A DNA stretch of 13,111 bases from a virus: UHGV virus genome UHGV-2002320, one strand, 5' to 3'. Of this stretch, positions 210 to 13,111 are shown piece by piece (the stretch's first letter is position 1; each line of letters begins with the position of its first letter). The notes below the pieces were generated by a model. That model searched no databases. It was not told the origin of the DNA and saw nothing but the letters and a program-made list of their open reading frames with translations. The position numbers were made by a program, and so were the translations under genes.

Positions 210-228
210 ATGGTGCCGATAATAGGAG
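210..228. repeat. attR-like core: 19-bp direct repeat of the tRNA-Thr 3' end (ATGGTGCCGATAATAGGAG)
   Basis: Exact match to 13035..13053, which covers the last 18 nt of the tRNA plus 1 nt. Flanking bases differ on both sides (209 vs 13034, 229 vs 13054), so the repeat is sharply delimited. Confidence 0.75.
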
Positions 229-417
229 CAAAACAACATCGTAACCACCTGTATTTTATGGAAGTAATAAAATAAATTTGAAAAATGCCCCCATAAGTGC
301 CCCCTATCTCCACCACGAAGAGGATTCATAAATATTTATAATTTCAGGATACGTTAAACACTTCCCTAATTTTAATTACACCCTCACATTAGAAAATTTA
401 CGATATAATTATGATAA

Positions 418-450
418 CACCAGTCATATTATCATGACTGGTGCTTTTGG
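418..450. terminator. Stem-loop immediately downstream of the protease gene stop; possible bidirectional intrinsic terminator
   Basis: Perfect 10-bp inverted repeat CACCAGTCAT (418..427) / ATGACTGGTG (434..443) with a 6-nt loop. Followed by CTTTTGG on the + strand and by an AT-rich run on the - strand. The protease stop codon is at 451..453. Confidence 0.4.
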
Positions 451-2895
451 TTAAATTTCAATAACATTCTCTATTTCTGTGTCAATTTTTAATAACTGAC
501 TAATTTCATTGTGAACTTCTAGATTATTTTCTTTAGTTTCAATAGAGATAATCAAACTAAATCTTGCAATACTAGATTGCCTATTTTCTTTTTTTAGCTC
601 CTTCCACCATCCACTCACAGGATAAATGGCTATGAACTTTTTGTCAGCTAATTCTAATGCTGTTCCGCTCCAAATGTCGCTATGAATAGACCCTCTATTC
701 CTTAGGGTTGGTCCTAATAACCATTTATTAGCATCACTTTCTCCAGCATCAAACTCTTGGTTTTCTTCTTTAAACTTTTTATTTATTCTTGAAACAAATT
801 CTCCGGACTCTTCACCAGGGCTATTAAAATCAAATCTTAAACCGAAAGATCCATATTTATATTTATTATCCCAACCTCTTTCGCCTGGATTAGGCTCTAC
901 AAAATAAGATAACGTTACTCTTAACTTTACGTCCTCTCCACCAATTTTTTCTAATTCAGAGGAAGGCCATGGTAATGAATAAAGAATCATCTTGTTTAAC
1001 TTGCCTTCAACTGTGTAGGGCTGTATTGAATCTTCGACTATTAAATTAACAGATTGATCACCGCTTGAAATTGCTTTTGCTAAATTAGGGAAACCATAAC
1101 CTGACATTCTTAAAAGAAATTCCACATTCTGCTTTGTACGTAAAGGCTCATGTCTTTCGAGGATTTTCTTTGGCCAGGATGCGCTATGGACAACTAAAGC
1201 TCGGATTGTTTCAGGCCAATAATTTGGATACTGACTCCATAGTTTAGAGATGAAAAAAGCAGCCATACCTGTTGCAGCGCTTGTCTCAGAGAAACTACTA
1301 AAATACTCCCCTTTAGTGAATTCATGAGAAAGTGTTAATAAGCTAAGCTCTTCTAAATTAGCAGAAAAGTTGAGATGTGAATCATAACCAAAATTCCCTC
1401 CTTCAAAAACGACATCCGGCTTAAAAGGTGAATTATTTTTCCATATCCTAGATGTTGTAGATGATGGCCCTAAATCAGTTAGTTCAGCAATAACATCATA
1501 ACCATCTGTTATAACGTTATCTTCACTTGCCCAATATCCAACTGTTAGAGCATTATATGAATTAGCGGGATCTTCAATTGAATAAGTTATATTTGCATCC
1601 GGATAATCAGAAATTAGATTAGGAGGAAGATTGCCTGCAGATAATATAAATAATCTTTTCTCTGGATCGTCAGGACTACCTGAAGCAAGTCTGTCGATTG
1701 CTGCGGACCAACTAGTAGGCATCCCTCTTAAAGTATTTGGAGAGGACACTGCCATCGTAAATATCCGACGTTCTGAGGGTTGTTTGGCTTCTATATTGTA
1801 TATAGCATCAGTGGTAATAGCGCCATAAAGTTGAGGTTCATTTACACCAGTATCAGGTAAAATTTTAGCTGACTCAATAACTCCACTTATCGGCAATTCT
1901 TTAGACTGTATCGCGAATTTAAGATCACCAAATAATGCCAATCCAGCAATACCGGTTCCATGACCTTTTAAATCGCTATTCGCCCACTGAGGTTCGGCTA
2001 CAACTAGTGCATTTTCATTTACAAATGTATTAAGCAGTGGGTGCTGAGAGTTAATACCTGTATCAAGTATGCAAATAGGAATTAATGTATTTAGTTTTCT
2101 ATAAGTTATACCATTAACCCACTGAAAAGCTTCAGCTGGTTTCAAATCAAGAAAATCTACACTCACAGCTTTCGAGGGCCGAACTTCCGAAATAATCTCC
2201 GTCATCTGTTGAAGCAGCATTAACTGATGCATAGAAGCACAGACTATTTTTACAACTCTATCTTTAAAACTAAGTGTGCCTTGTTTAACTGTTATACCCA
2301 ACTGACCACATAGTTGTTCAAATTTATTCAGAAGTATTTCTAGTTCTATATCACTTGAGTCCAGCCATAACTCAAGATCATGTATTTTATAAATATCTTC
2401 AGGGAACTCATCCTGACTAAACCATAAAGCCCGAAAATTGCCATATTCTATATTAGATATGGATTCTATAAATGGTTGATTCTTCGGGTTACCTTTTTTT
2501 GTATTCTCAGTAGCATATTCTTGCAGAATCTTTTCAAGTTTAGAAAAACCGTCTACGGGCACAGAAACGTTTGCCATTGTCATACCATCTATAGTATTAA
2601 CAGACATTATTTTCATCCCATTTGCATCTAAACTTTTTAAAACCATTCGTTCTTTAATTTCTGGATTTTCTTGAAAAGTCATTACTACCTTTTGAGGTTC
2701 ATTCCCTTTTCCTAATAACATCTCCACTGTTTTTTTTCTTTCATTATATATATTTATAGCAGATTCTAAACTATGCCTCACTTTTGCAAAATGGGCATTT
2801 CTGTTAACAGGACTTTTACCCTTTTTCGGGCCCCCTGTAACTGGTTTATAGTCAATAAGCTTCTGTGGTAAGTCGATTTTAATGTGAGCCTTCAT
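451..2895 (-). CDS. Subtilisin-like (S8 family) serine protease, 814 aa, with long N- and C-terminal extensions
   Basis: Catalytic motifs in canonical Asp-His-Asn-Ser order: ICILDTGI (Asp278, codon 2062..2064), GHGTGIAG (His312, 1960..1962), ILSAGN (oxyanion Asn422), SETSAATGMAAF (Ser539, codon 1279..1281). About 270 aa precede the Asp motif and about 270 aa follow the Ser motif. Start lies 18 bp after the ATPase stop with an AGGGA ribosome-binding site. Markedly AT-rich compared with the element core. Confidence 0.85.
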   Translation of the reverse strand: MKAHIKIDLPQKLIDYKPVTGGPKKGKSPVNRNAHFAKVRHSLESAINIYNERKKTVEMLLGKGNEPQKVVMTFQENPEIKERMVLKSLDANGMKIMSVNTIDGMTMANVSVPVDGFSKLEKILQEYATENTKKGNPKNQPFIESISNIEYGNFRALWFSQDEFPEDIYKIHDLELWLDSSDIELEILLNKFEQLCGQLGITVKQGTLSFKDRVVKIVCASMHQLMLLQQMTEIISEVRPSKAVSVDFLDLKPAEAFQWVNGITYRKLNTLIPICILDTGINSQHPLLNTFVNENALVVAEPQWANSDLKGHGTGIAGLALFGDLKFAIQSKELPISGVIESAKILPDTGVNEPQLYGAITTDAIYNIEAKQPSERRIFTMAVSSPNTLRGMPTSWSAAIDRLASGSPDDPEKRLFILSAGNLPPNLISDYPDANITYSIEDPANSYNALTVGYWASEDNVITDGYDVIAELTDLGPSSTTSRIWKNNSPFKPDVVFEGGNFGYDSHLNFSANLEELSLLTLSHEFTKGEYFSSFSETSAATGMAAFFISKLWSQYPNYWPETIRALVVHSASWPKKILERHEPLRTKQNVEFLLRMSGYGFPNLAKAISSGDQSVNLIVEDSIQPYTVEGKLNKMILYSLPWPSSELEKIGGEDVKLRVTLSYFVEPNPGERGWDNKYKYGSFGLRFDFNSPGEESGEFVSRINKKFKEENQEFDAGESDANKWLLGPTLRNRGSIHSDIWSGTALELADKKFIAIYPVSGWWKELKKENRQSSIARFSLIISIETKENNLEVHNEISQLLKIDTEIENVIEI

Positions 2896-2913
2896 AATCC
2901 AGTCCCTATGTAA

Positions 2914-3897
2914 TTATTTATATGCTTTTCTCTCTTCTAAAACCTTTTGAAGGTCTATTTGATCTATTTTCTTTAAATTATTGATAATAGCAAATTTTAT
3001 CGCATCATCACAACTTTTTGAAACCTCTGAATAACTTAGCCCCTCAGCGCTACTCAACAAACTCCCCCACTCTTTTACGTTTAATTCAAAAGAATGATAT
3101 TTTGACTTAATTAATTCAATTAAGTTATCTTTTTCAGGCAAAGAATATTCGATCACATCATCAAACCTACGATATAAAGCACTATCCAGGATTTCTTTAT
3201 GATTCGTCGCACTAATAATCAAACTATCAGAATGATGCTCATCTAATAATTGTAAAAAAGTATTTAAAACACGGCGAATCTCACCTACATCATTATGCAT
3301 GCTTCTTTTTGAACCTATTGTATCGAACTCGTCGAACAAATAGACCCCTCTATTCATATTGATATATTCAAAAATACTTCGTAGTTTAGACGATGTTTCT
3401 CCCATAAATTTCGTTATAAGAGAATCCATTCTTACAGTAAAAAGAGGGAAATGTAATTCATGAGCAACAACGCTTGCCGTTAAAGTTTTACCAGTGCCTG
3501 GTGGACCATATAGTAGTAAATGTCTTCTAGGGACAAGACCATACTGTCTAATTTTAGATGCATTTTTATTCTCTTCTAAAAAACGCAATATCTTACTCCT
3601 GACGTCATTTGAAAGAATGACATCTGAAATTTTATTAGTCGGATGAGAAACAGTAAAAAGATCATTAGAGGAATGATTTATTACAGCAGTACTCGACGAA
3701 AGTACTCGAGGGTAATTGTTCCCTTCGTTAGCTTGTAACTTAGCCTTTTCTACAAGCAATCTCAACTCATCGGCGAATTTTCCATGACCTATCTTTGCTT
3801 CATGAGCAGCAATCTGTAGTACTACAGTCAAAAACTTGCGATCATCGCGTGCGATAAAATTTTTTACTAACGCTTTTAGTTGGTTTGCACTAGCCAT
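2914..3897 (-). CDS. AAA+ ATPase of the classic AAA clade, 327 aa
   Basis: Walker A GPPGTGKT (3484..3507), Walker B VYLFDEFD, sensor-1 ISATN, arginine-finger region SALYRRF. About 120 aa N-domain precedes the ATPase core. AGGA ribosome-binding site 8 nt upstream of the ATG. First gene of a two-gene operon with the protease. Confidence 0.9.
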   Translation of the reverse strand: MASANQLKALVKNFIARDDRKFLTVVLQIAAHEAKIGHGKFADELRLLVEKAKLQANEGNNYPRVLSSSTAVINHSSNDLFTVSHPTNKISDVILSNDVRSKILRFLEENKNASKIRQYGLVPRRHLLLYGPPGTGKTLTASVVAHELHFPLFTVRMDSLITKFMGETSSKLRSIFEYINMNRGVYLFDEFDTIGSKRSMHNDVGEIRRVLNTFLQLLDEHHSDSLIISATNHKEILDSALYRRFDDVIEYSLPEKDNLIELIKSKYHSFELNVKEWGSLLSSAEGLSYSEVSKSCDDAIKFAIINNLKKIDQIDLQKVLEERKAYK

Positions 3898-3974: not shown

Positions 3975-4197
3975 TCCAGAAAGCAGCATCGAGCAATTAA
4001 ACAAAATTAGTCAGCGTGCGCAGCCCCGCACGCCTGCCTGCTTCGCTTAACAGACTGGTTTTCATGCATGCCATAAATCGTCTCAGAAGCCACCAAACAA
4101 GGGCTTTCTCGTCAAAAATGGTGCATAAGACTCATGCGTTTTCATGCGCCATAGACATGCACTCATGCGCTCTCAGGCCAGCCAGGGAAAAGGTGTT

Positions 4198-4242: not shown

Positions 4243-4524
4243 TCAGACAGGAATCTGCTGACGGCTTGACAGTTTTGACGCGGAGCCATAGCGATTGAGC
4301 GTTTGCTGTTGTTTTACCGGGGTTTGTGATTTGTCTGGTTCCTGTTCATTGCGCCGGGGTTTCATGATTATCTTATCCACACTCTCCAGTGCCGTAAATG
4401 TGCAGGAACATTCCAGATTCTGGCACTGATACCACGAGCGTTTAACTGACGGAGCTTCATAGGCTGCTGTTCTGGCGTGTGCAACTGTACCGCATTCCGG
4501 ACATTTAAGTGCCATTAATATCAC
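4243..4524 (-). CDS. Ogr/Delta-family zinc-finger late transcription activator, 93 aa
   Basis: CPECGTVAHARTAAY...YQCQNLECSCTF matches the Cys-x2-Cys...Cys-x4-Cys signature and surrounding residues of P2 Ogr / P4 Delta (AHART, QCQN, ESV..I.KP). Overlaps the preceding gene by 4 bp (ATGA). Confidence 0.8.
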   Translation of the reverse strand: MILMALKCPECGTVAHARTAAYEAPSVKRSWYQCQNLECSCTFTALESVDKIIMKPRRNEQEPDKSQTPVKQQQTLNRYGSASKLSSRQQIPV

Positions 4525-5072
4525 TCCTGTATATCGTTAATGTCATTCAGGCGTTGCTGAAAACGCAGATGTTGTGCCGGGGTGTAAGAACCCTGGCAAT
4601 CACGAATCATCCCGGGGTCAGGCATCAAACCGGATTCATCCAGGATCTCACGATAATCCCCGGCAATTTCAGGCGGTGTTATTGCCAGCTGGCGAACCAG
4701 AGCACTGCGTAATATACGGGACGCAACGTCAACCCCTCCGCGCCCCTTCAGGAACGGAGCCAGTGCAGATGTCAGGGCTGCCCCATTCGCCTGCATAAAA
4801 TTGCTGAGAGCGGCTTCTGTGCAGGCCTCCATCAGTAAATGCTGCGCGTAAATGCATTCGCGCGCAGCACAGTTAATTTGCCATTTCAGCACATCCAGAC
4901 GTTCCCGCAGTAATTCGAGCTGTCGGGCATAATCTGCTGGTTTTTCTGTGGCAGCGAGGAGAGATGTTATCTGTTGTTCAACGGCTTTTCGGCTCTCACT
5001 ATGTCCGGCCCACAGAATACGGGCATTCCGAAAACTGGTAAGTGCCTGGTCAGGCGTGCCTCGGGCCGTCAT
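4521..5072 (-). CDS. psu: Psu-like protein (polarity suppression / capsid decoration family), 183 aa
   Basis: Size and operon position match P4 Psu. Recognisable similarity to remembered P4 Psu segments (L..LR....V.KWQ.N.AA; G.AL..ALAP.L; TPAQ). Start overlaps the upstream gene stop by 4 bp. Confidence 0.6.
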   Translation of the reverse strand: MTARGTPDQALTSFRNARILWAGHSESRKAVEQQITSLLAATEKPADYARQLELLRERLDVLKWQINCAARECIYAQHLLMEACTEAALSNFMQANGAALTSALAPFLKGRGGVDVASRILRSALVRQLAITPPEIAGDYREILDESGLMPDPGMIRDCQGSYTPAQHLRFQQRLNDINDIQE

Positions 5073-5812
5073 ACTGCTTTCTCCTTCTCAGCGAGTTCCT
5101 GACGAACCTTAATTTTATGCATAGCTGCCGGAGAGAGTTGATTACTGAAATCCAGACGCGCCGCATAATCCGGGGCAACTCCCGCCAGTTTAAACACCGG
5201 GTCCTGCTCAGGCATCGCATCGTTAGCCAGAGCCGGTCTGGTGATATGTTTATGAATAAAGTCTTTCAGCACTGTGTCCGGGTCATTAACTGAATTCACC
5301 ACACCCACAACGGCACTGGCTTCCCGGCCCATTGTGGATTTAAGCAGGCTCAGCGTCTGAATAAGCGCTTTTCCATGCGACTGCATAAAATCTTCCCAGA
5401 TTTGTTTTGCGCGAATATCCACAAGAATATTATGCGCGTGGATATACTTTCCGGCTAATTCTGCAGCTTTCTGCGGCAAAAGTGCATTTTCGCTTTCCTG
5501 AGCCGCCAGCAGCTCATCAAAATCCTCAAGCGTTTCTCGTCCCAGCGCAATTTCCGTGCGCAGTTTTTTCATTTCCTTTGAGACCACGCCCTGACTTTCA
5601 CGAAACAGCGTGCGCCACTCCTCATTCAGTGTGTTCGTCGTGGCTTCCATTTCAGCGCGACGCTGGCGGATTGTCGCAATATTATCCGCTGCCGCTTTCT
5701 GCTGACGACGTGCTTCAAGCCATGCGTTTCTGGCTGTGTTCATGGTTTCCAGTGCCCGCTGCGTTACAGCCGGAAAAGTGGAAAGGTTGTTATTCACTGC
5801 GGTGTTGTTCAT
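5069..5812 (-). CDS. Sid-like (capsid size determination / external scaffold) or Psu-family paralog, 247 aa
   Basis: Size is close to P4 Sid (244 aa) and it is the first gene of the late operon, preceded by TGT-N12-ACA dyads. Strong ribosome-binding site (AGGAG, 5-nt spacing). The assignment rests on position and size, not on motifs. Confidence 0.45.
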   Translation of the reverse strand: MNNTAVNNNLSTFPAVTQRALETMNTARNAWLEARRQQKAAADNIATIRQRRAEMEATTNTLNEEWRTLFRESQGVVSKEMKKLRTEIALGRETLEDFDELLAAQESENALLPQKAAELAGKYIHAHNILVDIRAKQIWEDFMQSHGKALIQTLSLLKSTMGREASAVVGVVNSVNDPDTVLKDFIHKHITRPALANDAMPEQDPVFKLAGVAPDYAARLDFSNQLSPAAMHKIKVRQELAEKEKAV

Positions 5813-6212: not shown

Positions 6213-8885
6213 TTAACCCGGCACCTCGCTGTTGAAGACATAGAGCCTGCGGGGATTCATCTCTGGCGGGCGAATGGTTGTCTGGAGTTTGCCATCAGTG
6301 GAGGGCAGCAGGTATCCACGATCTGCGCACAGACGCGCCACCTTGCGCGGGTCAAATCCCCTGCAGATTTCTTTCCAGCCGGACGGCATGACATAGAACG
6401 TAGTGACAGCTTCCGTGCCCTGCGCGGTACTGCCTTTCTCCACCCTGCGCCAGCCCACCATATTGCCGGGGCGGTTGCGCTCGTCATACCAGTCTGCAAA
6501 GCGGCTGTACTGATTCGCGGTGAAGAAACTGCGAACCTGCTCCAGTGCGGCGATATCTTCCTGATTGGCGGTGTGCCCGCGATCTTTCAGCCATGCGTTC
6601 AGGCAGACGCGGGTTGCCCGCAGTGCTTCACCCTCAGGCCAGCCGGTGATACCCAGACGGGTTGCCAGTTCACCTGCCATCGCCACCAGAGCAAAGCGGT
6701 TCACAGCCCGGCCCACCTGATTGCCTGCATCTTTCGGAGTCAGGGCGGCAGCATATTCCTTCATCAGCGATTTTGCCTGTGCCGTTAGTCCGTTAAGATC
6801 AGCGGTCAGTGCTTTCAGCCACTCCCGGAACGGCGAACCGTAGTAGCAGGACGTGGCCCATTCAAGATGCTCTGCCAGAGCCTTGCCGCTGTCGAAGCCG
6901 TGCAGCTCCTCAAAAACGCCAAACTTCCCGGAATCGCTGGGGATCTGGATCATCCTGACTTCCATCCCGGCAAAAGTACGCTCACCGGCCTTTGCCGCAT
7001 GTTCGGTCAGAGACAACTCGCCAGTTGAAAAGAACAACAGGCGCCACTGCTTACGGGTACGCAGCTCACCGTCCGTACCGGCACGGCCCTTGCCCTGACC
7101 GTTTGCCAGCATGTAGGCGATATTGCCTGCCTCGCGTCCGTCAACTTCCCGGATCTCATCAAGCATCATGGCGGCATCGTTGCGGCGGCTGGCGCATCCC
7201 TCCAGCGCGTTGCCGGTGGCCCGCCATGTCTGCCAGTAGTCAGGCCCGCCGCAGACGGAGGTTGCCGCTTTCATGGTGGTGGTCTTACCGTCTGTCGATT
7301 CCCCTTTGAGGTGGTAGCCGCCGCCGTCCATACCAACCAGCCGTAACAGTGGTGCAGCAAAGGCCAGGCTGACAGCAAATGCCACGCGGGAGTTGCCGGT
7401 ACAGTAGCGGGATACATGCTCCCGCCATTCCTCTGATGTGCCCGACACGCGGAAATCACGCCCCTGCACGGAAGTGGTCTGGAGAATGACACCCTCTGCA
7501 CCTTCACCGCTGACCTCATCCTGCAGGACGTAAACCTGACCATGCCAGCCAGTACGACTGACGCAGGTCACGCGGCGTTCCGGTTTACACAGTGAGATAT
7601 ATTCCATCAGGCGTGCGCGTGCCTCACCGGTGGTGCTGATATAAGACAGCCCGTTAACCAGCAGTACCCGGCGCAGTTCCTCACCACTGCCGCTCAGCAT
7701 TTCCATCGGCATCGCCCAGCGGCGACACTCACCCCACGTATCTTCCCATTCCAGCAGTCGTCCGAAGTTACCGCCATCGGCATCGCAGGTGATTGCCGTC
7801 ACGCGCAGCGGGCTGCATATTTTGACGTTCTGGATCTCCGTCTCACCGTTGCGCTGTACCTGCTTTTCATACCAGAGATATTCCTGGGTAAGACGGAACC
7901 CGTGCGGCAGTTGCGTGCGGCCTTCCCCGCACAGTACCAGACCGTTGCGAAAGGCTTCACGGGCACGGGTAATACCGTGCTCCCGATGAAAGTCATTCCA
8001 GTCAGCCTTAATCTCTCCTGGTGGCAGCGTCATCCAGCCGCCAACAGCTTTTGCCGCCCGTTCAGCAAAGGCTCTGCCGGGATTCTCACCTCCGTCCTGA
8101 AAATCGTTATCACCGGCGATGATAATTTTTACCTCAGGCCAGCGTGCCCGCAGCGACTGCGCTACATTGGGCAGGTTGCCCGCAGATATGGCAGCCACTA
8201 CGCATCCGGCAGTGAGCTGACTTACCGTCAGCGCCGTAGCGTAACCTTCGGTAATCACCACCTGTACCGGTGGTTCAGACGGTAACGGGCTGAGCGACAC
8301 AAACGCGCCTTTCATCGTGCTGCCGGGCAGTATGCTTTTTTCACCCGTCGGGGCGATAAGCTGTGCACCAGTCACGGCTCCGGTGTTGGTCGTGAGTGGT
8401 AACAGCAGGGAACCGGCAGGAAAATCCTTACCGCTGATATGCTGCACGCTTCCGGTCAGAGAGGCCGGGTATCCGGCGAACCCTTTTCCTGTCAGATAGG
8501 CGCTTTCTCCCGTGTGGCTCTCTTTCATCAGCGCCGCCACGGTAAGACCCATGTCGCGTTTAGGGGCTTTTTGTCTGGCAGGCTTAACAGGCAGTTCCTG
8601 CACATCCGGCACATTAAGCACCTGCGCCACCTCCTGCGCAGCCTTTCTGACGCTGTAACCGGTTACGAGCTTAACCAGATCCAGACCGTCACCATTGCCA
8701 CACTGGCTGCAGATCCACGTCCCGCGCCCGTCAAGGTCATCAAGGCGAAAACGATCCTTGCCCCCACATTTCGGGCAGGGACCGTGCCTGCCGTTTTCAG
8801 GTACATCAATACGCAGCATCTGGAGAATAACGGGCCATTTCCCCCGTGCGGCGGCTGAAATCTGCGTAACCGTTTGTATTGTCAT
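6213..8885 (-). CDS. P4 alpha-like primase/helicase, 890 aa (zinc ribbon + TOPRIM + P-loop NTPase)
   Basis: N-terminal zinc ribbon CPKCGG..RFR...CSQCG, TOPRIM-like core (VVITEGYATALT ... IIIAGDNDF), downstream P-loop GESTDGKTTT. Translationally coupled to the upstream gene (ATGA overlap at 8882..8885). GC-rich. Confidence 0.9.
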   Translation of the reverse strand: MTIQTVTQISAAARGKWPVILQMLRIDVPENGRHGPCPKCGGKDRFRLDDLDGRGTWICSQCGNGDGLDLVKLVTGYSVRKAAQEVAQVLNVPDVQELPVKPARQKAPKRDMGLTVAALMKESHTGESAYLTGKGFAGYPASLTGSVQHISGKDFPAGSLLLPLTTNTGAVTGAQLIAPTGEKSILPGSTMKGAFVSLSPLPSEPPVQVVITEGYATALTVSQLTAGCVVAAISAGNLPNVAQSLRARWPEVKIIIAGDNDFQDGGENPGRAFAERAAKAVGGWMTLPPGEIKADWNDFHREHGITRAREAFRNGLVLCGEGRTQLPHGFRLTQEYLWYEKQVQRNGETEIQNVKICSPLRVTAITCDADGGNFGRLLEWEDTWGECRRWAMPMEMLSGSGEELRRVLLVNGLSYISTTGEARARLMEYISLCKPERRVTCVSRTGWHGQVYVLQDEVSGEGAEGVILQTTSVQGRDFRVSGTSEEWREHVSRYCTGNSRVAFAVSLAFAAPLLRLVGMDGGGYHLKGESTDGKTTTMKAATSVCGGPDYWQTWRATGNALEGCASRRNDAAMMLDEIREVDGREAGNIAYMLANGQGKGRAGTDGELRTRKQWRLLFFSTGELSLTEHAAKAGERTFAGMEVRMIQIPSDSGKFGVFEELHGFDSGKALAEHLEWATSCYYGSPFREWLKALTADLNGLTAQAKSLMKEYAAALTPKDAGNQVGRAVNRFALVAMAGELATRLGITGWPEGEALRATRVCLNAWLKDRGHTANQEDIAALEQVRSFFTANQYSRFADWYDERNRPGNMVGWRRVEKGSTAQGTEAVTTFYVMPSGWKEICRGFDPRKVARLCADRGYLLPSTDGKLQTTIRPPEMNPRRLYVFNSEVPG

Positions 8886-9265
8886 ACTTCCCCCTGATAC
8901 AACGTCACACCGGTACTGCAGAAGTCATCAAAGGCCGCCGGAAGCGTGCGGTACATCTCCGCCATCACTTCACAGCCGCGCGCGGTCAGTACCGGCGGCG
9001 CGGTCAGCAGTGACGGCTCCAGCATGTCAGTCAGCAGTGCCAGCGCGGCAGCGGCGCCCTGTGCTTCGCCGTACTCGTTAATCAGTACGCACTCGATATG
9101 CAGCGCAATGGCCATTTCAATACGCTCCACCGTCAGGCTGTGCGGACCATACTGATCACTGCCAGTTTCGTTCAGCATTTTCTGCCGCCATGCTGAAGCA
9201 ATAGCCCGCCGGTAAAGCGCGGTGGTCATTTCTGCCGGGAAAATGGAAACCTGCGGCTGGTTCAT
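8882..9265 (-). CDS. Hypothetical protein, 127 aa, in the replication operon upstream of the primase
   Basis: ORF with ATGA overlaps at both ends (9262..9265 and 8882..8885), indicating operon membership. No motif recognised. Confidence 0.6.
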   Translation of the reverse strand: MNQPQVSIFPAEMTTALYRRAIASAWRQKMLNETGSDQYGPHSLTVERIEMAIALHIECVLINEYGEAQGAAAALALLTDMLEPSLLTAPPVLTARGCEVMAEMYRTLPAAFDDFCSTGVTLYQGEV

Positions 9266-9546
9266 CTGGCACCTCCTTCAATCAGTGCGCAGCTGTGTGC
9301 AATATCCGTCAAATCTGCCAGCAGGTACTCCATCAGCGCGGCGACACCATGCGCACAGCCAGTGTCCAGTGCTCCGGCCTGAGACGGGTATTCAGAAAAG
9401 AGAAGCTGGAGCATGTCGCAGGCATTTCTTGCGCGGGTCAGCTTTCCGAAACTGTCCTCTGACAACCCATAGGCAAAAACACCGGTATTGTGTTTTTCAG
9501 GCAAAGTGTGGCCCTGAGCACCGTTGTGCCCGTTTGAAATATTCAT
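9262..9546 (-). CDS. Hypothetical protein, 94 aa
   Basis: ORF with a GGAG ribosome-binding site upstream and a 4-bp overlap with the next gene. No motif recognised. It occupies the position where P4 carries small genes such as epsilon, but no homology is claimed. Confidence 0.55.
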   Translation of the reverse strand: MNISNGHNGAQGHTLPEKHNTGVFAYGLSEDSFGKLTRARNACDMLQLLFSEYPSQAGALDTGCAHGVAALMEYLLADLTDIAHSCALIEGGAR

Positions 9547-9577
9547 CGTGGATTACTCCGTTTTCAGCGGTATTGTG

Positions 9578-9937
9578 TCAGAGAAACTTTGAATAGTGAC
9601 CGTCATCAGGCTCAGCAGAACGCCATATGCTACGCTCCCGCCAGCGGATAAATAGCACAGACGGATGCAGTGTCAGCGGGCCGGAACCACTACCGCCTGC
9701 AGGAGCTGGTGCAGGCTTAAAGAGCGGTACATCAAACAGGCGCGTATATCGCTGTTCAAACCATGCCAGAGGGCAGGAAGAAAGCTGGTTGTCGCTGTCA
9801 TGACGTATCAGCACTTCACAGCTGAATTCAGGATTAACCAGCGCCACAGAGGGCGAGGCTTCTATTAATCGGATAATCGTGACCGTCCAGCCACGTTCAT
9901 GCTGCCAGCGTTCGCCGGGATGCGGATAATTACGCAT
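9578..9937 (-). CDS. Hypothetical protein, 119 aa (start moved to the internal ATG; the ORF track gives 9578..9967)
   Basis: GGAGG lies 5 nt upstream of the ATG at 9935..9937 (MRNYPHPG...). This start overlaps the stop of a small upstream ORF by 8 nt. The longer track start at 9967 has no comparable ribosome-binding site. Confidence 0.5.
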   Translation of the reverse strand: MRNYPHPGERWQHERGWTVTIIRLIEASPSVALVNPEFSCEVLIRHDSDNQLSSCPLAWFEQRYTRLFDVPLFKPAPAPAGGSGSGPLTLHPSVLFIRWRERSIWRSAEPDDGHYSKFL

Positions 9938-10106
9938 GTTCACCTCCGCAGGGAATGCGCCCGGCAAAGCTCAGTACATAGTCCGGGGCAAGTCTGCGCC
10001 GCGCTGACCGCTCGTTATCTGCGGTGATCCTTAACATCACAGGACGGGCATTGCGTTGACTGCGGTTGATCGCCGCAAATAACCAGGTACACTTCTGTTT
10101 AGCCAT
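9930..10106 (-). CDS. Small hypothetical protein, 58 aa, below the ORF-track length cutoff; first gene of the replication operon
   Basis: ATG at 10104..10106 preceded by AAGAGG with an 8-nt spacer; translation MAKQKCTWLFAAINRSQRNARPVMLRITADNERSARRRLAPDYVLSFAGRIPCGGEHA; TAA at 9930..9932 overlaps the next start. Found by manual translation only. Confidence 0.3.
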   Translation of the reverse strand: MAKQKCTWLFAAINRSQRNARPVMLRITADNERSARRRLAPDYVLSFAGRIPCGGEHA

Positions 10107-10198
10107 CTTCGTTACCTCTTATAACGGTTGGTTAAATGCCCGATTTGTGTTCCCGCACAATCGGGCATTGCTTTTACAAGCGAACTATACTTACAATG

Positions 10199-10238
10199 GT
10201 AATTACCATGTAGTCATCATATTCTAGGGTAATTACCA
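10199..10238. promoter_or_regulatory. Two copies of the self-complementary 10-mer GGTAATTACC spaced 30 bp apart; candidate operators in a divergent promoter region
   Basis: GGTAATTACC at 10199..10208 and 10229..10238, each embedded in the longer direct repeat GGTAATTACCATGT. The second copy overlaps the start codon of the ribbon-helix-helix-like gene. Confidence 0.4.
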
Positions 10239-10411
10239 TGTCAACACCACAAGAGAAACGTTCTCCACCATTCCAAATGCGTCTTACCGACGATTTTAGG
10301 TTGCAACTCGAAAACGAAATGCGCAAAGATGGAGATAGCGCGTTGGCAACTTGGATTAAAAGAATTTTACGCAAAGAACTCCAATCACGCGGGATTGACC
10401 CTAAAGGCTAA
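10238..10411 (+). CDS. Arc/MetJ-type ribbon-helix-helix DNA-binding protein, 57 aa, below the ORF-track cutoff; candidate repressor
   Basis: Manual translation MSTPQEKRSPPFQMRLTDDFRLQLENEMRKDGDSALATWIKRILRKELQSRGIDPKG. The segment FQMRL..DFRLQLENEMRKDGDSALATWIKRIL aligns by eye with the Arc repressor strand-helix-helix (FNLRWPREVLDLVRKVAEENGRSVNSEIYQRV). The only + strand gene in the element. Confidence 0.5.
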   Translation: MSTPQEKRSPPFQMRLTDDFRLQLENEMRKDGDSALATWIKRILRKELQSRGIDPKG

Positions 10412-10443
10412 TCAGTTAAATATTACTAACTATCAATTAAGGC

Positions 10444-10734
10444 TTAGGGAGTAGATGATAATCTATTCCCTTTATTAATTGCTCTTGCCTTATTTCTCAT
10501 CCCCTCAAACTGTTGACCTGAGTTTTCTTCAAACCCATCTCGCCACTTATAATAATCAGCAGCGCGCCATCGTGACATCCGACCTATTTTTATAGGTTTT
10601 GGAAAGCGATTCAGAGAAATCAATCGATAAATCCATTTATCACTTAATAAACAATCGGAAGTAATAAACTTCATATCGATCAGAGAATCCATTGAAGGTC
10701 GTTGCAAAGTAGTATTATCATGTTTAGATAACAT
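10444..10734 (-). CDS. alpA: AlpA-family phage transcriptional regulator (helix-turn-helix), up to 96 aa; true start may be an internal Met
   Basis: The segment SDKWIYRLISLNRFPKPIKIGRMSRWRAADYYKW matches the AlpA signature (..IYRLI..G.FPKP.K.G.R...W...). AT-rich. Confidence 0.7.
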   Translation of the reverse strand: MLSKHDNTTLQRPSMDSLIDMKFITSDCLLSDKWIYRLISLNRFPKPIKIGRMSRWRAADYYKWRDGFEENSGQQFEGMRNKARAINKGNRLSSTP

Positions 10735-10859
10735 TCATCATTCTCCGTTTATCTAAGTCTATTGGCTTCAACACGGAAAATTAAAACATAGGTTATAAAT
10801 GAGAAAAATGTGACTAATGAAAAAAATTCAAAATCATTAGCCACAACAATTGTTAATAT

Positions 10860-11684
10860 TTAGTTAAACTTAATGTTTTTCATGCAACTACGTAGCAAAC
10901 TAACAACAGTATCATAGCTCAAAGGCGGTTCTCCGGTCTTAGGCCAGAACTCACTGGCATGTTGAAAAAGATAATCAGCTATCGCTGCTGGACTCTCTCT
11001 TCTTAGCCTCATATCACGATGATAGAGCGAAATAATAGCCATGAGTATTTCAGCTCGAGGAACAGCATGTTTTTGTTTTTGCGCCTCAGATTGTGATTTA
11101 TATTTATTGGCGTTTTTTATCCGCTTTTGTTCGCATAAGACTATATCAATGAATTTTTGAATCTGTACCTTTGTAATCCACAAAACCTCAAAAAGATAAT
11201 AATTTTCTTTTTCATCATAATTTACATAAAGAATTACCTTACAATTTATATTAGGCGTACCCGCCAGTAGAAAATGAATAGGCCAGGAATCCGGTTGCCC
11301 CTCATGCTTAACTAACAGATCTTTATATTCATAATCAACAGCCCATAAACCGGATATGAAGCATCGAATAAAACCATTTTTATCAATTAAATTATCTTCA
11401 TCAGGGATTCTTATAGAACTTAAGTCTGACAACATAATATTGCCATTTCTATCTCGTGGTAAATATTTCAGATTAGATAAGAACTCATCCATTTGACCAT
11501 CAATCTTCAAACCACATGAAACATCATACTCATCATCATGGAATTCCATGCATAGCTCTACATCTCGTTCTCTGGCAAACCAGAGTATATCCTTTTCACT
11601 ACAACCAATTTTTTCTGAAGCTTCATCCAACTGGTAGTAATCTCTGAGCAGAGAATCAGTATTATTAATTTTTAAAATATTCAT
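10860..11684 (-). CDS. Hypothetical protein, 274 aa, AT-rich orphan cargo gene directly downstream of the integrase
   Basis: Long ORF whose ATG overlaps the integrase stop (ATGA at 11681..11684). Composition is strongly AT-biased compared with the element core. No catalytic or binding motif recognised. Confidence 0.7.
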   Translation of the reverse strand: MNILKINNTDSLLRDYYQLDEASEKIGCSEKDILWFARERDVELCMEFHDDEYDVSCGLKIDGQMDEFLSNLKYLPRDRNGNIMLSDLSSIRIPDEDNLIDKNGFIRCFISGLWAVDYEYKDLLVKHEGQPDSWPIHFLLAGTPNINCKVILYVNYDEKENYYLFEVLWITKVQIQKFIDIVLCEQKRIKNANKYKSQSEAQKQKHAVPRAEILMAIISLYHRDMRLRRESPAAIADYLFQHASEFWPKTGEPPLSYDTVVSLLRSCMKNIKFN

Positions 11685-12868
11685 TTATGAGTACCAATTT
11701 GCTCAGATAAATAATTAGCATACCATTGCATCATTTCTCTTCTCCCTTCGAGATATTGGGCATGGTTATAAATTCCACGAATAGAGTTTTTGTCCGAATG
11801 AGCAAGCTGGGTTTCAATCCAAGCGCTGTTAAATCCTTTCTCATGTAGGATTGTACTCATCGTATGCCTGAAACCATGCCCCGTAACACGCCCTGCATAT
11901 CCAATACGTTTAAACACCTGATTAATGCTTGCTTCACTCATAAATTTGCTGGGATCGTTGCGTCCAGGGAACATCAGCGGGTAGTTCCCAGTTAGTTCTT
12001 TCAAACTTTTGAGATGGGATAATGCTTGTTTTGACAACGGGACAATATGGCTCCTACGCATTTTCATACGTTCTTTTGGGATCTCCCACACCGCATTATC
12101 AAAATCCACCTCTCGCCACTCACCTGCTCGTAGTTCTCCAGTTCGTAGACCTGTCAGGATAAGTAAATGCGCCCCCAACAATACAATTGGACTTCCTGAA
12201 TAAGAATTAAGGGCATTAAAGAACTCCGGTAGTTCGTTGGCTTTGAGGAATGGATAGTGGACTGCTTCATGTCCTTGCATCGCACTGGCAAGATCCGGTG
12301 CCGGATTGTAGATTGCCCTACCCGTTACGATGGCATAGCGAAAAACTTCACCGCATCGCTGACGGACTTTCTTCGCTTTCTCCATAGCGCCTCGAGCTTC
12401 TATCAACCTCAGAACTTCAAGCAGTTCAAGGGGCTGAATATCAGCTATAGGTCTGTGCCCAATATGCGGGAAAATGTCTTTCTCGAATGCCTCAATGATG
12501 TCGGAAGCATAGCCCTCAGACCATTTGGGTGATTTCATTTTGTGCCACTCTAACGCCACTTCTCTGAATGGGTTAAGTGTCTCACTCGCTGCATTTAAAG
12601 CCTGCTTTTTGGCTTTTTTGACTTCGCCGGGATCTTCACCTGCTGCGAGTAGTTTCTTCGCGTCTTCTCGTTTTTGTCTGGCATCAGCAAGTGTGACTGT
12701 TGGATAAACACCAAAGGACAATCGTTTCTCTTTACCAGCAAAACGGTATTTCATACGCCAGTAACGCGAGCCATTAGGTTCGACCTGAAGGTATAGGCCA
12801 CCTCCATCAAACAGCTTGTAGCTCTTCTCTTTTCCTTTCGCAGCTTCAACCTTGCGGGCATTCAGCAT
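11681..12868 (-). CDS. int: P4-type tyrosine integrase (about 395 aa from the likely ATG; the ORF track extends to a TTG at 12940)
   Basis: N-terminal region (M)LNARKVEAAKGKEKSYKLFDGGGLYLQVEPNGSRYWRMKYRFAGKEKRLSFGVYP is the hallmark of P4-family integrases. C-terminal catalytic region contains HGFRHT and the LAHSD...YNH segment. Lies next to the tRNA 3' end in the same orientation. Confidence 0.9.
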   Translation of the reverse strand: MLNARKVEAAKGKEKSYKLFDGGGLYLQVEPNGSRYWRMKYRFAGKEKRLSFGVYPTVTLADARQKREDAKKLLAAGEDPGEVKKAKKQALNAASETLNPFREVALEWHKMKSPKWSEGYASDIIEAFEKDIFPHIGHRPIADIQPLELLEVLRLIEARGAMEKAKKVRQRCGEVFRYAIVTGRAIYNPAPDLASAMQGHEAVHYPFLKANELPEFFNALNSYSGSPIVLLGAHLLILTGLRTGELRAGEWREVDFDNAVWEIPKERMKMRRSHIVPLSKQALSHLKSLKELTGNYPLMFPGRNDPSKFMSEASINQVFKRIGYAGRVTGHGFRHTMSTILHEKGFNSAWIETQLAHSDKNSIRGIYNHAQYLEGRREMMQWYANYLSEQIGTHK

Positions 12869-13035
12869 CATTGGGGGCACATTTCCTAGACCGAACAGAA
12901 CATGCCCCTGATTGTGCCCCCAACCGCGTGTTGATTTCAAGAGACAAGGGTTGACCTCAAACGTATGAAAACAACGTAATATATATGTTTTTAAATGATT
13001 TTGTTGATGTGGGTTGACTTGGGAAAACTAGGTGA

Positions 13036-13111
13036 TGGTGCCGATAATAGGAGTCGAACCTACGACCTTCGCATTACGAATGCGCTGCTCTACCAACTGA
13101 GCTATATCGGC
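13036..13111 (-). tRNA. thrW: tRNA-Thr, anticodon CGT, 76 nt with encoded CCA
   Basis: The reverse complement of 13036..13111 folds by eye into a cloverleaf: acceptor GCCGATA, D-arm GCTC/GAGC, anticodon loop TTCGTAA, T-arm GGTTCGA, 3' CCA. From memory it matches the enterobacterial thrW tRNA, a known integration site. Its last 18 nt are duplicated at 211..228. Confidence 0.9.

What the first reader, a model, noticed from the sequence alone, without database searches (positions are those of the whole stretch)
210..13053. Complete P4-like satellite delimited by 19-bp direct repeats at a tRNA-Thr site
Both ends of the element fall inside the window. The repeat ATGGTGCCGATAATAGGAG occurs at 210..228 and at 13035..13053 (the tRNA 3' end), which gives exact element boundaries. 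The gene order is collinear with P4 (int, alpA, replication operon with primase, iterons, late operon), with variable cargo at two places.
Basis: partly seen in the sequence, partly recalled or inferred. Interest (0 to 1): 0.6.

Follow-up and report, generated by a model that had tools for sequence, protein, structure and literature searches.

The report
P4-type phage satellite carrying IetAS defence
This is an intact 12.8-kb phage satellite of the well-known P4 family, inserted at the end of the E. coli thrW tRNA gene and carrying an IetAS anti-phage cassette; it is a fairly ordinary find, although its modules are arranged differently from P4 itself.

Summary
The 19-bp repeat is exact at 210-228 and 13035-13053, and none is expected by chance. 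The right copy is the 3' end of tRNA-Thr(CGU), which is E. coli thrW. A model of the empty site (left flank, one repeat copy, tRNA) matches many E. coli genomes at 100% in one piece, so 210-13034 is a discrete 12,825-bp insertion.

The element belongs to the P4 satellite family. It has a P4-type integrase and five arm-type sites placed as in P4 attP. It also has an AlpA/Vis-like gene, an Icd/Kil-like gene, a Cnr-like gene, a primase-helicase, eight P4-like iterons, a late promoter with two TGT-N12-ACA dyads, and sid-psu-delta. A cos-like region is homologous to that of P2-like (Peduoviridae) phages. Next to it lies a defence hotspot holding IetA and IetS; relatives carry DRT3, a retron or other systems there.

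It is not collinear with P4. The late operon follows the primase on the same strand, so the hotspot abuts the distal att site. Only the primase N-terminus resembles P4 alpha, no epsilon homologue was found, and the exact P2/P4 cos 19-mer is absent.

This backbone block is found in about 6% of complete E. coli genomes. I rate it a new member of a known kind, of modest interest.

The parts
1..209 (.). Chromosomal flank. It contains the 3' remnant of the LysR-type pseudogene yagP (ends at 84), next to paoD.
   Evidence: RefSeq annotation of the identical locus. The same flank abuts thrW directly in empty-site genomes.
210..228 (+). Distal att core copy (19 bp), far from the tRNA and int.
   Evidence: Exact repeat. 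The homology of relatives and of the MS1266 tandem array breaks here.
283..306 (+). Two arm-type integrase sites, AAATGCCCCCAT and AAGTGCCCCCTA (the P' arm of attP).
   Evidence: They share motif, orientation and spacing with P4's annotated attP arm repeats: gaps of 54 and 66 nt from the core, against 53 and 65 in P4. The motif is kept in relatives whose surrounding sequence differs.
418..443 (.). Palindromic terminator-like hairpin just after the ietS stop codon.
   Evidence: Terminator scan.
451..2895 (-). ietS: S8 (subtilase) serine peptidase, 814 aa, the toxin/effector of IetAS.
   Evidence: PADLOC IetS, 152 bits, E 4e-45. Pfam Peptidase_S8, 170 bits. The LDTG, HGTG, SAGN and ETSAA motifs are present at residues 277, 312, 419 and 537.
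2914..3897 (-). ietA: AAA ATPase, 327 aa, partner/antitoxin of IetS.
   Evidence: PADLOC IetA, 266 bits, E 1.5e-79. Pfam AAA, 104 bits. Walker A is GPPGTGKT and Walker B is LFDEFD.
4016..4165 (-). cos-like region. The candidate cohesive-end core is GGCGTGCGGGGCTGCGCAC (4016-4034), with conserved upstream blocks. The variable hotspot begins immediately after it.
   Evidence: It aligns with the P4 cos flank. It shares GTGCATGTCTATG.CGCATGA...CGCATGA, TGCATGAAAACCA and GGCAGGCGTGCGGGG with Peduoviridae phages, at the position between gpA/dinI and the hotspot/portal. Homology among relatives ends at 4015-4020. The exact P2/P4 19-mer is absent.
4243..4515 (-). delta: Ogr/Delta zinc-finger late transcription activator (single-domain form).
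   Evidence: Pfam Ogr_Delta, 58 bits. PHROG 603, the same family as P4 delta. 45% identity to the N-terminal half of P4 delta.
4521..5072 (-). psu: capsid decoration and Rho-inhibiting polarity suppression protein.
   Evidence: Pfam Psu, 151 bits. 29% identity to P4 Psu over the full length.
5069..5812 (-). sid: capsid size determination (external scaffold) protein.
   Evidence: PHROG 6165, 311 bits over the full length, the same family as P4 Sid at 387 bits. The Sakai Sp2 homologue is annotated as a capsid size determining protein.
5847..5902 (.). Late promoter region (Psid-like): two TGT-N12-ACA dyads, TGTGTCGTGGCTGACACA and TGTGTGGTGGCTGGCACA, lying 35-90 nt upstream of the sid ATG.
   Evidence: Pattern search. 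P4 Psid carries TGTGTCAGGGCTGGCACA at the equivalent place. That Ogr/Delta proteins bind such dyads comes from my own knowledge of the P2/P4 literature.
5991..6178 (.). Replication origin: eight iterons TGTTYCACC in both orientations.
   Evidence: 8 matches against 0.25 expected. The P4 ori/crr type-1 repeat is TGTTCACC.
6213..8885 (-). Primase-helicase, 890 aa: zinc ribbon, Toprim and a DUF927 helicase domain.
   Evidence: Pfam Zn_Ribbon_Prim, Toprim_3 and DUF927. PHROG 1139. Only residues 4-311 of P4 alpha align, at 38%. Walker A is GESTDGKT at residue 528.
8882..9265 (-). Cnr/ORF106-like protein (DUF5375).
   Evidence: Pfam DUF5375. PHROG 5991, the same family as P4 ORF106. 40% identity.
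9262..9937 (-). Two small early genes of unknown function: orf94 (9262-9546) and orf119 (9578-9937). They sit where P4 has epsilon and orf151.
   Evidence: They match PHROG 14861 and 30862. P4 epsilon and orf151 belong to PHROG 10016/3688 and 10748 instead.
9930..10106 (-). Icd/Kil-like cell-division inhibitor, first gene of the early operon.
   Evidence: NCBIfam phage_ICD_like, 84 bits. 54% identity to the matching part of the P4 cI/kil reading frame.
10196..10244 (-). Early promoter TTGACA-17-TATGAT (10244 to 10216), overlapped by two GGTAATTACC palindromes (10198-10207 and 10228-10237).
   Evidence: It is the best sigma-70 match in the window, 11 of 12. The sequence was read directly.
10238..10411 (+). 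orf57: a conserved small protein transcribed divergently from the early promoter; a candidate repressor.
   Evidence: 85 homologue clusters across Enterobacterales and Pasteurellaceae, two of which sources name 'Arc family DNA-binding protein'. No Pfam or PHROG hit. The AF2 monomer model was inconclusive.
10444..10734 (-). AlpA/Vis-like helix-turn-helix regulator and excisionase.
   Evidence: Pfam Phage_AlpA, 20.6 bits against a cut-off of 21. PHROG 66 and 2790 (E 1e-6 and 1e-4), the families that P4 Vis matches.
10860..11684 (-). orf274: AT-rich accessory gene of unknown function whose start overlaps the int stop codon.
11681..12871 (-). int: P4-type tyrosine integrase (396 aa from the MMLNARK start; an upstream TTG at 12940 is also possible).
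   Evidence: Pfam Arm-DNA-bind_3, Phage_int_M and Phage_integrase. 43% identity to P4 Int over 405 aa. The catalytic R...HxxR...Y motifs are present.
12871..12923 (.). Three arm-type integrase sites (the P arm of attP): ATGTGCCCCCAA (minus strand), ACATGCCCCTGA and TTGTGCCCCCAA.
   Evidence: They lie 153, 124 and 112 nt from the core, against 151, 124 and 112 in P4, in the same orientations.
13035..13053 (+). tRNA-proximal att core copy.
13036..13111 (-). thrW, tRNA-Thr(CGU): the integration target. It remains intact because the core repeats its 3' end.
   Evidence: ARAGORN, Rfam tRNA at 71.8 bits, RefSeq annotation.

Best explanation
Positions 210-13034 are one integrated, structurally intact satellite of the P4 family, 12,825 bp long.

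Shown here:
- It entered thrW by integrase-mediated recombination between an attP and the 3' end of the tRNA. This duplicated a 19-bp core, and the attP has P4-type arm sites.
- It carries a primase-helicase next to an iteron origin.
- It carries a sid-psu-delta operon behind a promoter with two Ogr/Delta-type dyads.
- It has a cos-like region related to those of P2-like (Peduoviridae) phages.
- Immediately beyond that region is a swappable slot, which here holds the IetA/IetS defence pair.

Inferred life cycle:
- While integrated, the element is kept quiet at the early promoter, possibly by the small divergent ORF57 protein binding the two GGTAATTACC palindromes.
- During this time IetAS protects the host against unrelated phages. 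IetAS is a protease toxin held in check by an ATPase.
- When a P2-like helper grows in the cell, its Ogr-type activator switches on sid-psu-delta, and Delta cross-activates the helper's late genes.
- Int together with AlpA excises the element, and the primase-helicase replicates it from the iterons.
- Sid forces the helper capsid protein into small shells. The helper terminase cuts the cos-like site and packages the 12.8-kb genome.

The element differs from P4 in module order, in the helicase part of the replicase, in lacking a recognisable epsilon, and probably in how immunity is set.
For: - Boundaries and empty site.
- P4-type Int (43% identity) and five arm sites with P4's spacing and orientation.
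- Sid, Psu, Delta and Cnr fall in the same PHROG or Pfam families as the P4 proteins.
- Iterons TGTTYCACC, 8 copies against 0.25 expected (P4 has TGTTCACC).
- Two TGT-N12-ACA dyads upstream of sid, close to the P4 Psid dyad.
- cos-flank homology to P4 and, more closely, to Peduoviridae phages 500465-1, RE-2010 and MLG42, at their gpA/dinI-hotspot-portal position.
- The hotspot starts exactly at the end of the cos-like core, and holds DRT3, retron St85 or DUF2326/SMEK in relatives that are otherwise 99% identical.
- IetA and IetS identified by PADLOC with catalytic motifs intact.
- All ORFs are intact. Copies 99.9% identical occur in 7 complete genomes from different hosts. In MS1266 the copy lies tRNA-proximal to an older vat island, as expected for a later integration.
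- The cos-to-sid block (4013-5725: cos region, delta, psu and most of sid) is 92.5% identical to that of Sakai prophage Sp2, which is annotated as P4-like.
- Published background on P4-like satellites and their cos-adjacent defence hotspot: PMC8628076, PMC9122126, PMC10085698, bioRxiv 10.64898/2026.02.27.708500.
Against: - The P2/P4 cohesive-end 19-mer is absent at up to 3 mismatches.
- The candidate core shares only its first 11 nt with the closest phage cos. The 19-mer GGCAGGCGTGCGGGGCTGC, which spans the junction into that core, occurs in IMG/VR only in satellites of this lineage, so no matching helper was identified.
- No epsilon homologue was found.
- The AlpA Pfam score is just under the cut-off.
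- The gene order is not that of P4 or of the variants listed in PMC8628076.
- No excised attP junction or small plasmid form was found in viral contigs, metagenome contigs or plasmid records.
- Several relatives are internally deleted but keep IetAS, so this lineage does decay in place.
- Excision, replication, packaging and defence activity were not and cannot be tested here.
Confidence: 0.85

Rival explanations
1. The element is a P4-derived island that is no longer mobilisable. On this view it is a domesticated defence island at thrW that keeps satellite genes but cannot be packaged, because its cos core differs from known helpers and it lacks epsilon.
For: - The P2/P4 cos 19-mer is absent, and no phage shares the full candidate core.
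- Epsilon was not detected.
- No excised form was found.
- Independent internal deletions that retain IetAS are common.
Against: - Every gene is intact. The 19-bp cores are perfect and the five arm sites are preserved with P4 spacing.
- The cos flank is conserved among relatives and with Sakai Sp2, and shares blocks with Peduoviridae phages.
- The same backbone occurs with three different int modules and att sites, and with many cargos, which implies recent mobility.
- The copy in MS1266 lies tRNA-proximal to an older island.
- Elements lacking epsilon are a recognised P4-like variant class (Type B; PMC10085698).
Confidence: 0.3
2. The element is a PICI-type island (int - alpA - primase layout) rather than a P4-like satellite.
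For: The co-directional order int, alpA, primase is the layout of Gram-negative PICIs. PMC10085698 notes that P4-like elements score as Type C PICIs.
Against: It encodes Sid, Psu and Delta, a P2-type cos flank and a P4-type attP. No small-terminase, Rpp or capsid-morphogenesis gene is present: every ORF was scanned and none matched.
Confidence: 0.05
3. The 12.8 kb is two tandem elements: an int-alpA-primase island plus an integrase-less P4 remnant carrying sid-psu-delta and cargo.
For: The late module is 92.5% identical to that of Sp2, which has the canonical P4 layout. This shows the module was exchanged by recombination.
Against: There is no internal att copy at up to 2 mismatches. The junction between primase and sid is the iteron origin plus the late promoter, not an att site. 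The whole unit shares one pair of boundaries in every context. The same primase-sid junction occurs in 322 genomes and with other int modules.
Confidence: 0.03

Closest known systems
Satellite phage P4 (NC_001609)
   Same: - Tyrosine integrase (43% identity) targeting the 3' end of a tRNA gene, with five arm sites of the same motif, orientation and spacing.
- Vis/AlpA-type regulator, Icd/Kil-like gene, Cnr (ORF106) and a primase N-terminus.
- TGTTCACC-type iterons.
- Psid-type dyad, Sid, Psu and Delta.
- cos flank followed by a defence cargo slot.
- Similar size (12.8 kb against 11.6 kb).
   Different: - Module order and orientation: here the late operon follows the primase on the same strand, and the cargo abuts the distal att.
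- Late gene order is sid-psu-delta, not sid-delta-psu.
- Delta is a single Ogr-like domain.
- The helicase and DNA-binding part of alpha is replaced by DUF927.
- No epsilon or orf151 homologues.
- No CI RNA or C4-type RNA was detected; instead there is a divergent small protein gene with palindromic operators.
- The cos core is different.
- The att site is thrW, not leuX.
- The cargo is IetAS, not gop/beta/cII.
E. coli O157:H7 Sakai prophage Sp2 ('P4-like phage') at thrW
   Same: - Same integration site.
- The cos region, delta, psu and most of sid are 92.5% identical (window 4013-5725).
- Same sid-psu-delta order.
- The cos-adjacent cargo slot begins at the same nucleotide position.
   Different: - Sp2 has the canonical P4 layout: int - cargo - cos - late operon inverted - alpA ... 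alpha.
- Its primase has the length of P4 alpha (2334-nt CDS, about 777 aa).
- Its integrase DNA is only about 67% identical.
P4-like satellite defence hotspot (Rousset et al. 2022, PMC9122126; de Sousa et al., PMC8628076 and bioRxiv 10.64898/2026.02.27.708500)
   Same: - A cos-adjacent slot whose content changes between otherwise near-identical satellites and holds known defence systems.
- On the circular map the slot lies between psu/delta and int.
   Different: - In the integrated form the slot is next to the distal att rather than next to int. A screen that looks for an integrase within 10 genes downstream of psu, as in PMC9122126, would not capture it.
- The word IetAS does not appear in the main text of those papers.
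IetAS (Gao et al. 2020 defence system; originally a plasmid toxin-antitoxin pair)
   Same: An AAA ATPase followed by an S8 serine peptidase in one operon. Both match PADLOC IetA and IetS models, and their catalytic motifs are intact.
   Different: The best IetS model match is moderate (152 bits), so this is a divergent member. Activity and phage targets are untested. [quoted passage not shown]
Gram-negative PICIs (EcCI-type islands)
   Same: Co-directional int - alpA - primase layout at a tRNA-type site; dependence on a helper is inferred.
   Different: It has the P4 hijacking module (Sid, Psu, Delta) and a P2-type cos flank. It has no small-terminase, Rpp or capsid-morphogenesis genes.

Membership tests
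P4-like satellites (seven core components of SatelliteFinder, PMC10085698) | Integrase | tested here: met
   Three integrase Pfam domains. 43% identity to P4 Int over 405 aa.
P4-like satellites | Psu | tested here: met
   Pfam Psu, 151 bits (cut-off 27.4). 29% identity to P4 Psu.
P4-like satellites | Delta (Ogr/Delta zinc finger) | tested here: met
   Pfam Ogr_Delta, 58 bits. PHROG 603, shared with P4 delta.
P4-like satellites | Sid | tested here: met
   PHROG 6165, 311 bits over the full length, the same family as P4 Sid. Plain BLAST against P4 Sid is not significant.
P4-like satellites | AlpA-type regulator | tested here: inconclusive
   Pfam Phage_AlpA, 20.6 bits against a cut-off of 21. 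PHROG 66 and 2790 at E 1e-6 and 1e-4, the families matched by P4 Vis.
P4-like satellites | Epsilon (Ash), which derepresses the helper | tested here: not met
   No tblastn hit at E below 1. The ORFs at that position fall in different PHROGs. Missing one component corresponds to 'Type B', which the family definition still accepts.
P4-like satellites | Alpha primase-helicase | tested here: inconclusive
   Only the primase N-terminus (P4 alpha residues 4-311, 38%) is shared. The C-terminal two thirds is a DUF927 helicase. The two proteins fall in different PHROGs, 1139 and 2249. SatelliteFinder's own profile was not available to run.
P4-like satellites | Conserved gene order int - psu/delta/sid - alpA - epsilon - alpha | tested here: not met
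   The order here is int - alpA - primase - sid - psu - delta, all on one strand. It is not among the variants listed in PMC8628076.
P4-like satellites | cos site shared with a P2-like helper | tested here: inconclusive
   The P2/P4 19-mer is absent. The flank is homologous to P4 and to Peduoviridae cos regions, and 15 nt (GGCAGGCGTGCGGGG) are identical to phage 500465-1. No phage with the full candidate core was found.
P4-like satellites | Integration at a tRNA 3' end through a P4-type attP (core plus arm repeats) | tested here: met
   The 19-bp core is the thrW 3' end. Five (A/G)TGCCCC(C/T) sites lie at P4's distances and in P4's orientations.
P4-like satellites | Helper-dependent packaging into small capsids | not testable with these tools
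   This needs transduction and electron-microscopy experiments.
IetAS defence system | IetA AAA ATPase adjacent to an IetS S8 peptidase in one operon | tested here: met
   PADLOC IetA at 266 bits and IetS at 152 bits. The genes are 18 nt apart on the same strand, and the catalytic motifs are present.
IetAS defence system | Protection against phage infection | not testable with these tools
   This needs a phage challenge of a strain carrying the cloned cassette.
PICI | Packaging or capsid-redirection genes (terS, rpp, capsid morphogenesis), with no P4 hijacking genes | tested here: not met
   No such gene was found among the scanned ORFs, while Sid, Psu and Delta are present.

The most novel reading that the evidence does not exclude
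The window represents a distinct sub-family of P4-like satellites that may not yet have been described as such. This backbone block is found in about 6% of complete E. coli genomes. Its features are:
- The replication and late modules are co-directional, so the cos-adjacent defence slot sits against the distal att site.
- The P4 alpha helicase is replaced by a DUF927 helicase.
- Epsilon is missing.
- P4's RNA-based immunity may be replaced by a small Arc-like repressor acting on two palindromic operators, together with a cis-antisense RNA over the icd start.
- The cos flank points to helpers among non-P2 Peduoviridae (Felsduovirus or Wadgaonvirus types).

Because of the layout, hotspot screens anchored on 'psu then int' would have missed its cargo.
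Probability: 0.3. Interest if true: 0.45.

Novelty: new member of a known kind. Interest (0 to 1): 0.3.

Why it matters
This is a clean, exactly bounded example of a P4-family satellite delivering a defence system (IetAS) to E. coli at thrW. It shows how the same backbone swaps cargo, integrase module and even its late module with other satellites.

Practically, its layout places the defence slot next to the chromosome rather than next to the integrase. This explains why decayed copies leave an 'orphan' IetAS island at thrW. It also means that screens looking for psu followed by int would overlook this slot.

None of this changes what is known about how satellites work.

Tried and rejected
- **P2/P4 cos 19-mer.** I searched for GGCGAGGCGGGGAAAGCAC at up to 3 mismatches and found none. 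I therefore turned to flank homology.
- **Candidate cos 19-mer in IMG/VR.** I scanned for GGCAGGCGTGCGGGGCTGC, hoping to find a helper. All 5 hits are the same satellite lineage.
- **Excised form.** I looked for an attP junction (int-side flank, core, then a non-tRNA base) in viral and metagenome contigs and found none. I looked for a small plasmid form in PLSDB; only mislabelled megabase records matched.
- **P4-type immunity RNA.** I searched Rfam for a CI/C4/IsrK-type RNA and found none. The only hit is a sub-threshold SymR-like match.
- **Epsilon.** I searched with tblastn and PHROGs and did not find it.
- **orf57.** Pfam at E up to 10 gave nothing. A PDB profile search hit only designed helical repeats. 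The AF2 monomer model is a single helix. The ribbon-helix-helix idea therefore rests on the sequence pattern and on two source names.
- **Second tRNA or generic repeat at 210-228.** Rejected.
- **Two tandem elements.** Rejected, because there is no internal att copy.

Full report
**1. The observation**

The 19-mer ATGGTGCCGATAATAGGAG occurs exactly twice, at 210-228 and 13035-13053. No other match appears at up to two mismatches, and none appears in 200 shuffles. ARAGORN and Rfam find one tRNA, tRNA-Thr(CGT), at 13036-13111 on the minus strand. The right copy is therefore the last 18 nt of the tRNA plus one base. The left copy is followed by CAAAAC instead of the tRNA body and is not a second tRNA.

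The window is 99.9% identical over its whole length to E. coli chromosomes. There it lies between proA-thrW and the yagP remnant-paoD. I built the predicted empty site (1-209 joined to 13035-13111, 286 nt). It matches many E. coli genomes at 100% in a single piece, and 2243 of 5426 genomes cover at least 80% of it. In strain MS1266 homology to the window starts at position 209. What lies to the left there is a different thrW island, carrying vat and a truncated integrase. The boundaries are therefore exact, and the element (210-13034, 12,825 bp with one core copy) is a discrete insertion.

**2. What is inside**

All but one of the genes that I take to be real lie on the minus strand. Reading from the tRNA, they are as follows.

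- **Integration module.**
  - A tyrosine integrase with arm-binding, central and catalytic domains; it is 43% identical to P4 Int.
  - An AT-rich unknown gene, orf274, whose start overlaps the int stop.
  - An AlpA/Vis-like regulator, with Pfam 20.6 bits against a cut-off of 21 and hits to PHROG 66 and 2790, the families P4 Vis matches.
- **Control region.**
  - A divergent 57-codon gene on the plus strand.
  - The best sigma-70-like promoter in the window.
- **Early genes.**
  - An Icd/Kil-like gene (NCBIfam 84 bits).
  - Two small unknown genes.
  - A DUF5375 protein in the same PHROG as P4 ORF106/Cnr.
- **Replicase.** An 890-aa protein with a primase zinc ribbon, a Toprim domain and a DUF927 helicase domain.
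- **Origin and late promoter.** A 400-nt non-coding stretch holds eight TGTTYCACC iterons, against 0.25 expected; the P4 type-1 repeat is TGTTCACC. It also holds two TGT-N12-ACA dyads close in sequence to the dyad in P4 Psid.
- **Late operon.**
  - sid (PHROG 6165, 311 bits, the family of P4 Sid).
  - psu (Pfam 151 bits).
  - A single-domain delta (Pfam Ogr_Delta).
- **Distal end.** A cos-like region, then ietA and ietS, a terminator hairpin, two arm-type sites and the distal core.

**3. The attachment site is P4-type**

P4's annotated attP arm repeats have the motif (A/G)TGCCCCC. The window has five such sites. Once the two ends are joined across the core, three sites lie on the int side at 153, 124 and 112 nt from the core, against 151, 124 and 112 in P4. 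Two lie on the other side at 54 and 66 nt, against 53 and 65 in P4. All are in the same orientations as in P4. The motif survives in relatives whose surrounding sequence is unrelated. This is strong sequence evidence that the Int/att system is of the P4 type and intact.

**4. The cargo slot**

PADLOC identifies ORF 2914-3897 as IetA (266 bits) and ORF 451-2895 as IetS (152 bits). Pfam gives AAA and Peptidase_S8. Walker A and B and the subtilase Asp, His, Asn and Ser motifs are all present.

Relatives that are 99% identical elsewhere carry other systems in exactly this place: Drt3a/Drt3b, a retron St85 pair with a RipA-family protein, or a DUF2326/SMEK set. Homology breaks at 4015-4020 on one side and at 229 or about 303 on the other. 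The cassette is 35% GC, against 51-59% for the backbone. This is the cos-adjacent defence hotspot described for P4-like satellites (PMC9122126; PMC8628076; bioRxiv 10.64898/2026.02.27.708500).

IetAS is reported as a protease toxin paired with an ATPase antitoxin, with anti-phage activity and an unknown mechanism (PMC13069673).

**5. The cos question**

The P2/P4 cohesive-end 19-mer is absent at up to three mismatches. The stretch between delta and the hotspot nevertheless aligns with the P4 cos flank. A short-query search against phage genomes hit P2-like (Peduoviridae) phages: Escherichia phage 500465-1, Salmonella RE-2010, Yersinia MLG42, several Klebsiella phages, and Burkholderia phages. 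In the annotated Peduoviridae records I inspected, the hit lies between gpA/dinI and the hotspot and portal genes. In most of the Burkholderia phages it lies within about 100-400 nt of the ends of the genome record.

In the alignment, the window shares three blocks with these phages:
- GTGCATGTCTATG.CGCATGA...CGCATGA
- TGCATGAAAACCA
- GGCAGGCGTGCGGGG

By position, the cohesive end in the phages would be GGCGTG(G)CGGGGATACGAG. In the window it would be GGCGTGCGGGGCTGCGCAC (4016-4034). The first 11 nt agree with phage 500465-1 and the rest do not. A 19-mer spanning the junction into that core (GGCAGGCGTGCGGGGCTGC, 4020-4038) is found in IMG/VR only in satellites of this lineage. Sakai prophage Sp2, annotated as P4-like and laid out like P4, has the same cos type at 92.5% identity.

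I therefore regard the region as a genuine cos of the P2 family, probably tuned to non-P2 Peduoviridae. The cut site and the helper remain unproven.

**6. Comparison with P4**

The P4 prophage order is:

int - cII/beta/gop - cos - psu, delta, sid (inverted) - ori - vis - cI - epsilon - orf151 - orf106 - alpha - crr.

In the window, the early module (alpA, promoter, icd, two small genes, cnr, primase) is internally collinear with P4's. The late module, however, follows the primase on the same strand. As a result, cos and the hotspot sit at the far end, against the distal att.

Other differences from P4:
- The late gene order is sid-psu-delta. A psu/delta swap is a known variant (PMC8628076).
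- P4 alpha matches only over residues 4-311.
- Epsilon and orf151 have no counterpart.

The claim of collinearity with P4 is therefore wrong at the level of modules. The layout is not among the order variants listed in PMC8628076.

It is not a one-off:
- The block 4243-10106 is contiguous in 322 of 5426 complete E. coli genomes.
- The same backbone occurs with an integrase 72% identical to P4 Int, in one case next to tRNA-Leu(CAA), and also with a third integrase type.

**7. How it most likely works**

The steps shown from sequence are integration at thrW through a P4-type attP, the module content, and the exchangeable cargo. The rest is inferred from what is known of P4:
- Repression in the integrated state, while IetAS protects the host.
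- Activation of sid-psu-delta by a helper's Ogr-type activator acting at the two dyads.
- Excision by Int together with AlpA.
- Replication from the iterons.
- Capsid down-sizing by Sid.
- Packaging at cos by the helper terminase.

At 12.8 kb the element is about 10% larger than P4, which is within the size range reported for the family (PMC8628076).

**8. Rival explanations**

- **Domesticated, non-mobilisable island.** This cannot be excluded. No helper cos matches fully, epsilon is missing, no excised form was found, and internally deleted derivatives that keep IetAS are frequent. Against it stand the intact genes, the perfect cores, the preserved arm sites, the modular exchange, and the tRNA-proximal position in a tandem array.
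- **PICI.** This does not fit, because the hijacking module is P4's and no PICI packaging gene is present.
- **Two tandem elements.** This is rejected because there is no internal att copy and the primase-sid junction is an origin plus a promoter.

**9. Verdict**

The kind of element, its hotspot and its cargo are all known, and near-identical copies are already in public genomes. I rate it a new member of a known kind, with interest 0.3.

The most novel reading still open is that this layout, with its DUF927 replicase and a possible protein repressor, defines a sub-family of satellites that has not been described and that 'psu-then-int' hotspot screens would have missed. I put its probability at about 0.3.

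Noticed in passing
window 10196-10411: The early promoter (TTGACA-17-TATGAT on the minus strand, 10244 to 10216) is overlapped by two perfect GGTAATTACC palindromes 30 bp apart (10198-10207 and 10228-10237). A divergent 57-aa gene starts inside the -35 hexamer. The protein is highly conserved: 85 clusters across Enterobacterales, Pasteurellaceae and Gilliamella, two of them named 'Arc family DNA-binding protein'. It may be a protein repressor standing in for P4's CI RNA. Pfam gave nothing and the AF2 monomer model was a single helix, so the fold is unconfirmed.
   Followed up: partly
window 10101-10172 (+): There is a sub-threshold SymR-like Rfam match (31.6 bits, gathering score 61; window-wide E = 0.01). 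It has two hairpins, the second followed by a T run. It lies antisense to the Shine-Dalgarno sequence and start codon of the Icd/Kil-like gene. It could be a cis-antisense RNA restraining a toxic gene, or it could be chance.
   Followed up: partly
[not shown]
   Followed up: partly
L017, L021, L023, L025, L026, L027: There are several independent internal deletions of the satellite: loss of orf119 through sid, loss of primase through delta, and loss of the int side. All of them keep ietA-ietS next to paoD, as if the defence cargo is retained while the mobility genes decay. The exact IetS protein is listed in 521 blocks of the assembly collection.
   Followed up: partly
L004 (E. coli MS1266) 1-9000: The same satellite sits between thrW and a vat (vacuolating autotransporter) island that has a truncated integrase. 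This is a tandem array in which the satellite is the tRNA-proximal, and so presumably later, arrival.
   Followed up: partly
L010, L012 (IMG/VR) and L008: The same icd-to-delta backbone (proteins 94-100% identical) is joined to different integration modules. In L010 and L012 the integrase is 72% identical to P4 Int, and in L012 it lies next to tRNA-Leu(CAA). L008 has a third integrase type with a different downstream gene.
   Followed up: partly
L016 (E. coli O157:H7 Sakai) 10951-23837: Prophage Sp2 has the canonical P4 layout and lies at thrW, in tandem with Sp1 and a 48-nt partial tRNA copy. It shares its cos region, delta, psu and most of sid with the window at 92.5% identity. The late module has therefore moved between two different satellite architectures.
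   Followed up: partly
window 4013-4034 (-) and the same place in L005-L007: The candidate cos core can form a hairpin followed by a T run (GGCGTGCG-GGGCTG-CGCACGCT), so it may also act as a terminator. Relatives with a different right half (…GCGGGGCTGCCCGCG) can still form a hairpin. The cargo-specific sequence starts inside this element.
   Followed up: no
window about 4150-4190 (-) and L002 (P4) about 9450-9490: About 35 nt just after the delta terminator (CCTTTTCCCTGGCTGGCCTGAGAGCGCATGAGTGC) resemble the P4 sequence just upstream of the Psid dyad (CCTTTTCCTGGCTTGCCGGTCTGAGGATGAGTCTCC). The match was seen by eye, BLAST did not report it, and it may be chance.
   Followed up: no
window 1-84: The left flank is the 3' end of a LysR-type pseudogene (yagP) that lacks its N-terminus. 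It is truncated in the same way in empty-site genomes, so the truncation was not caused by this element.
   Followed up: yes
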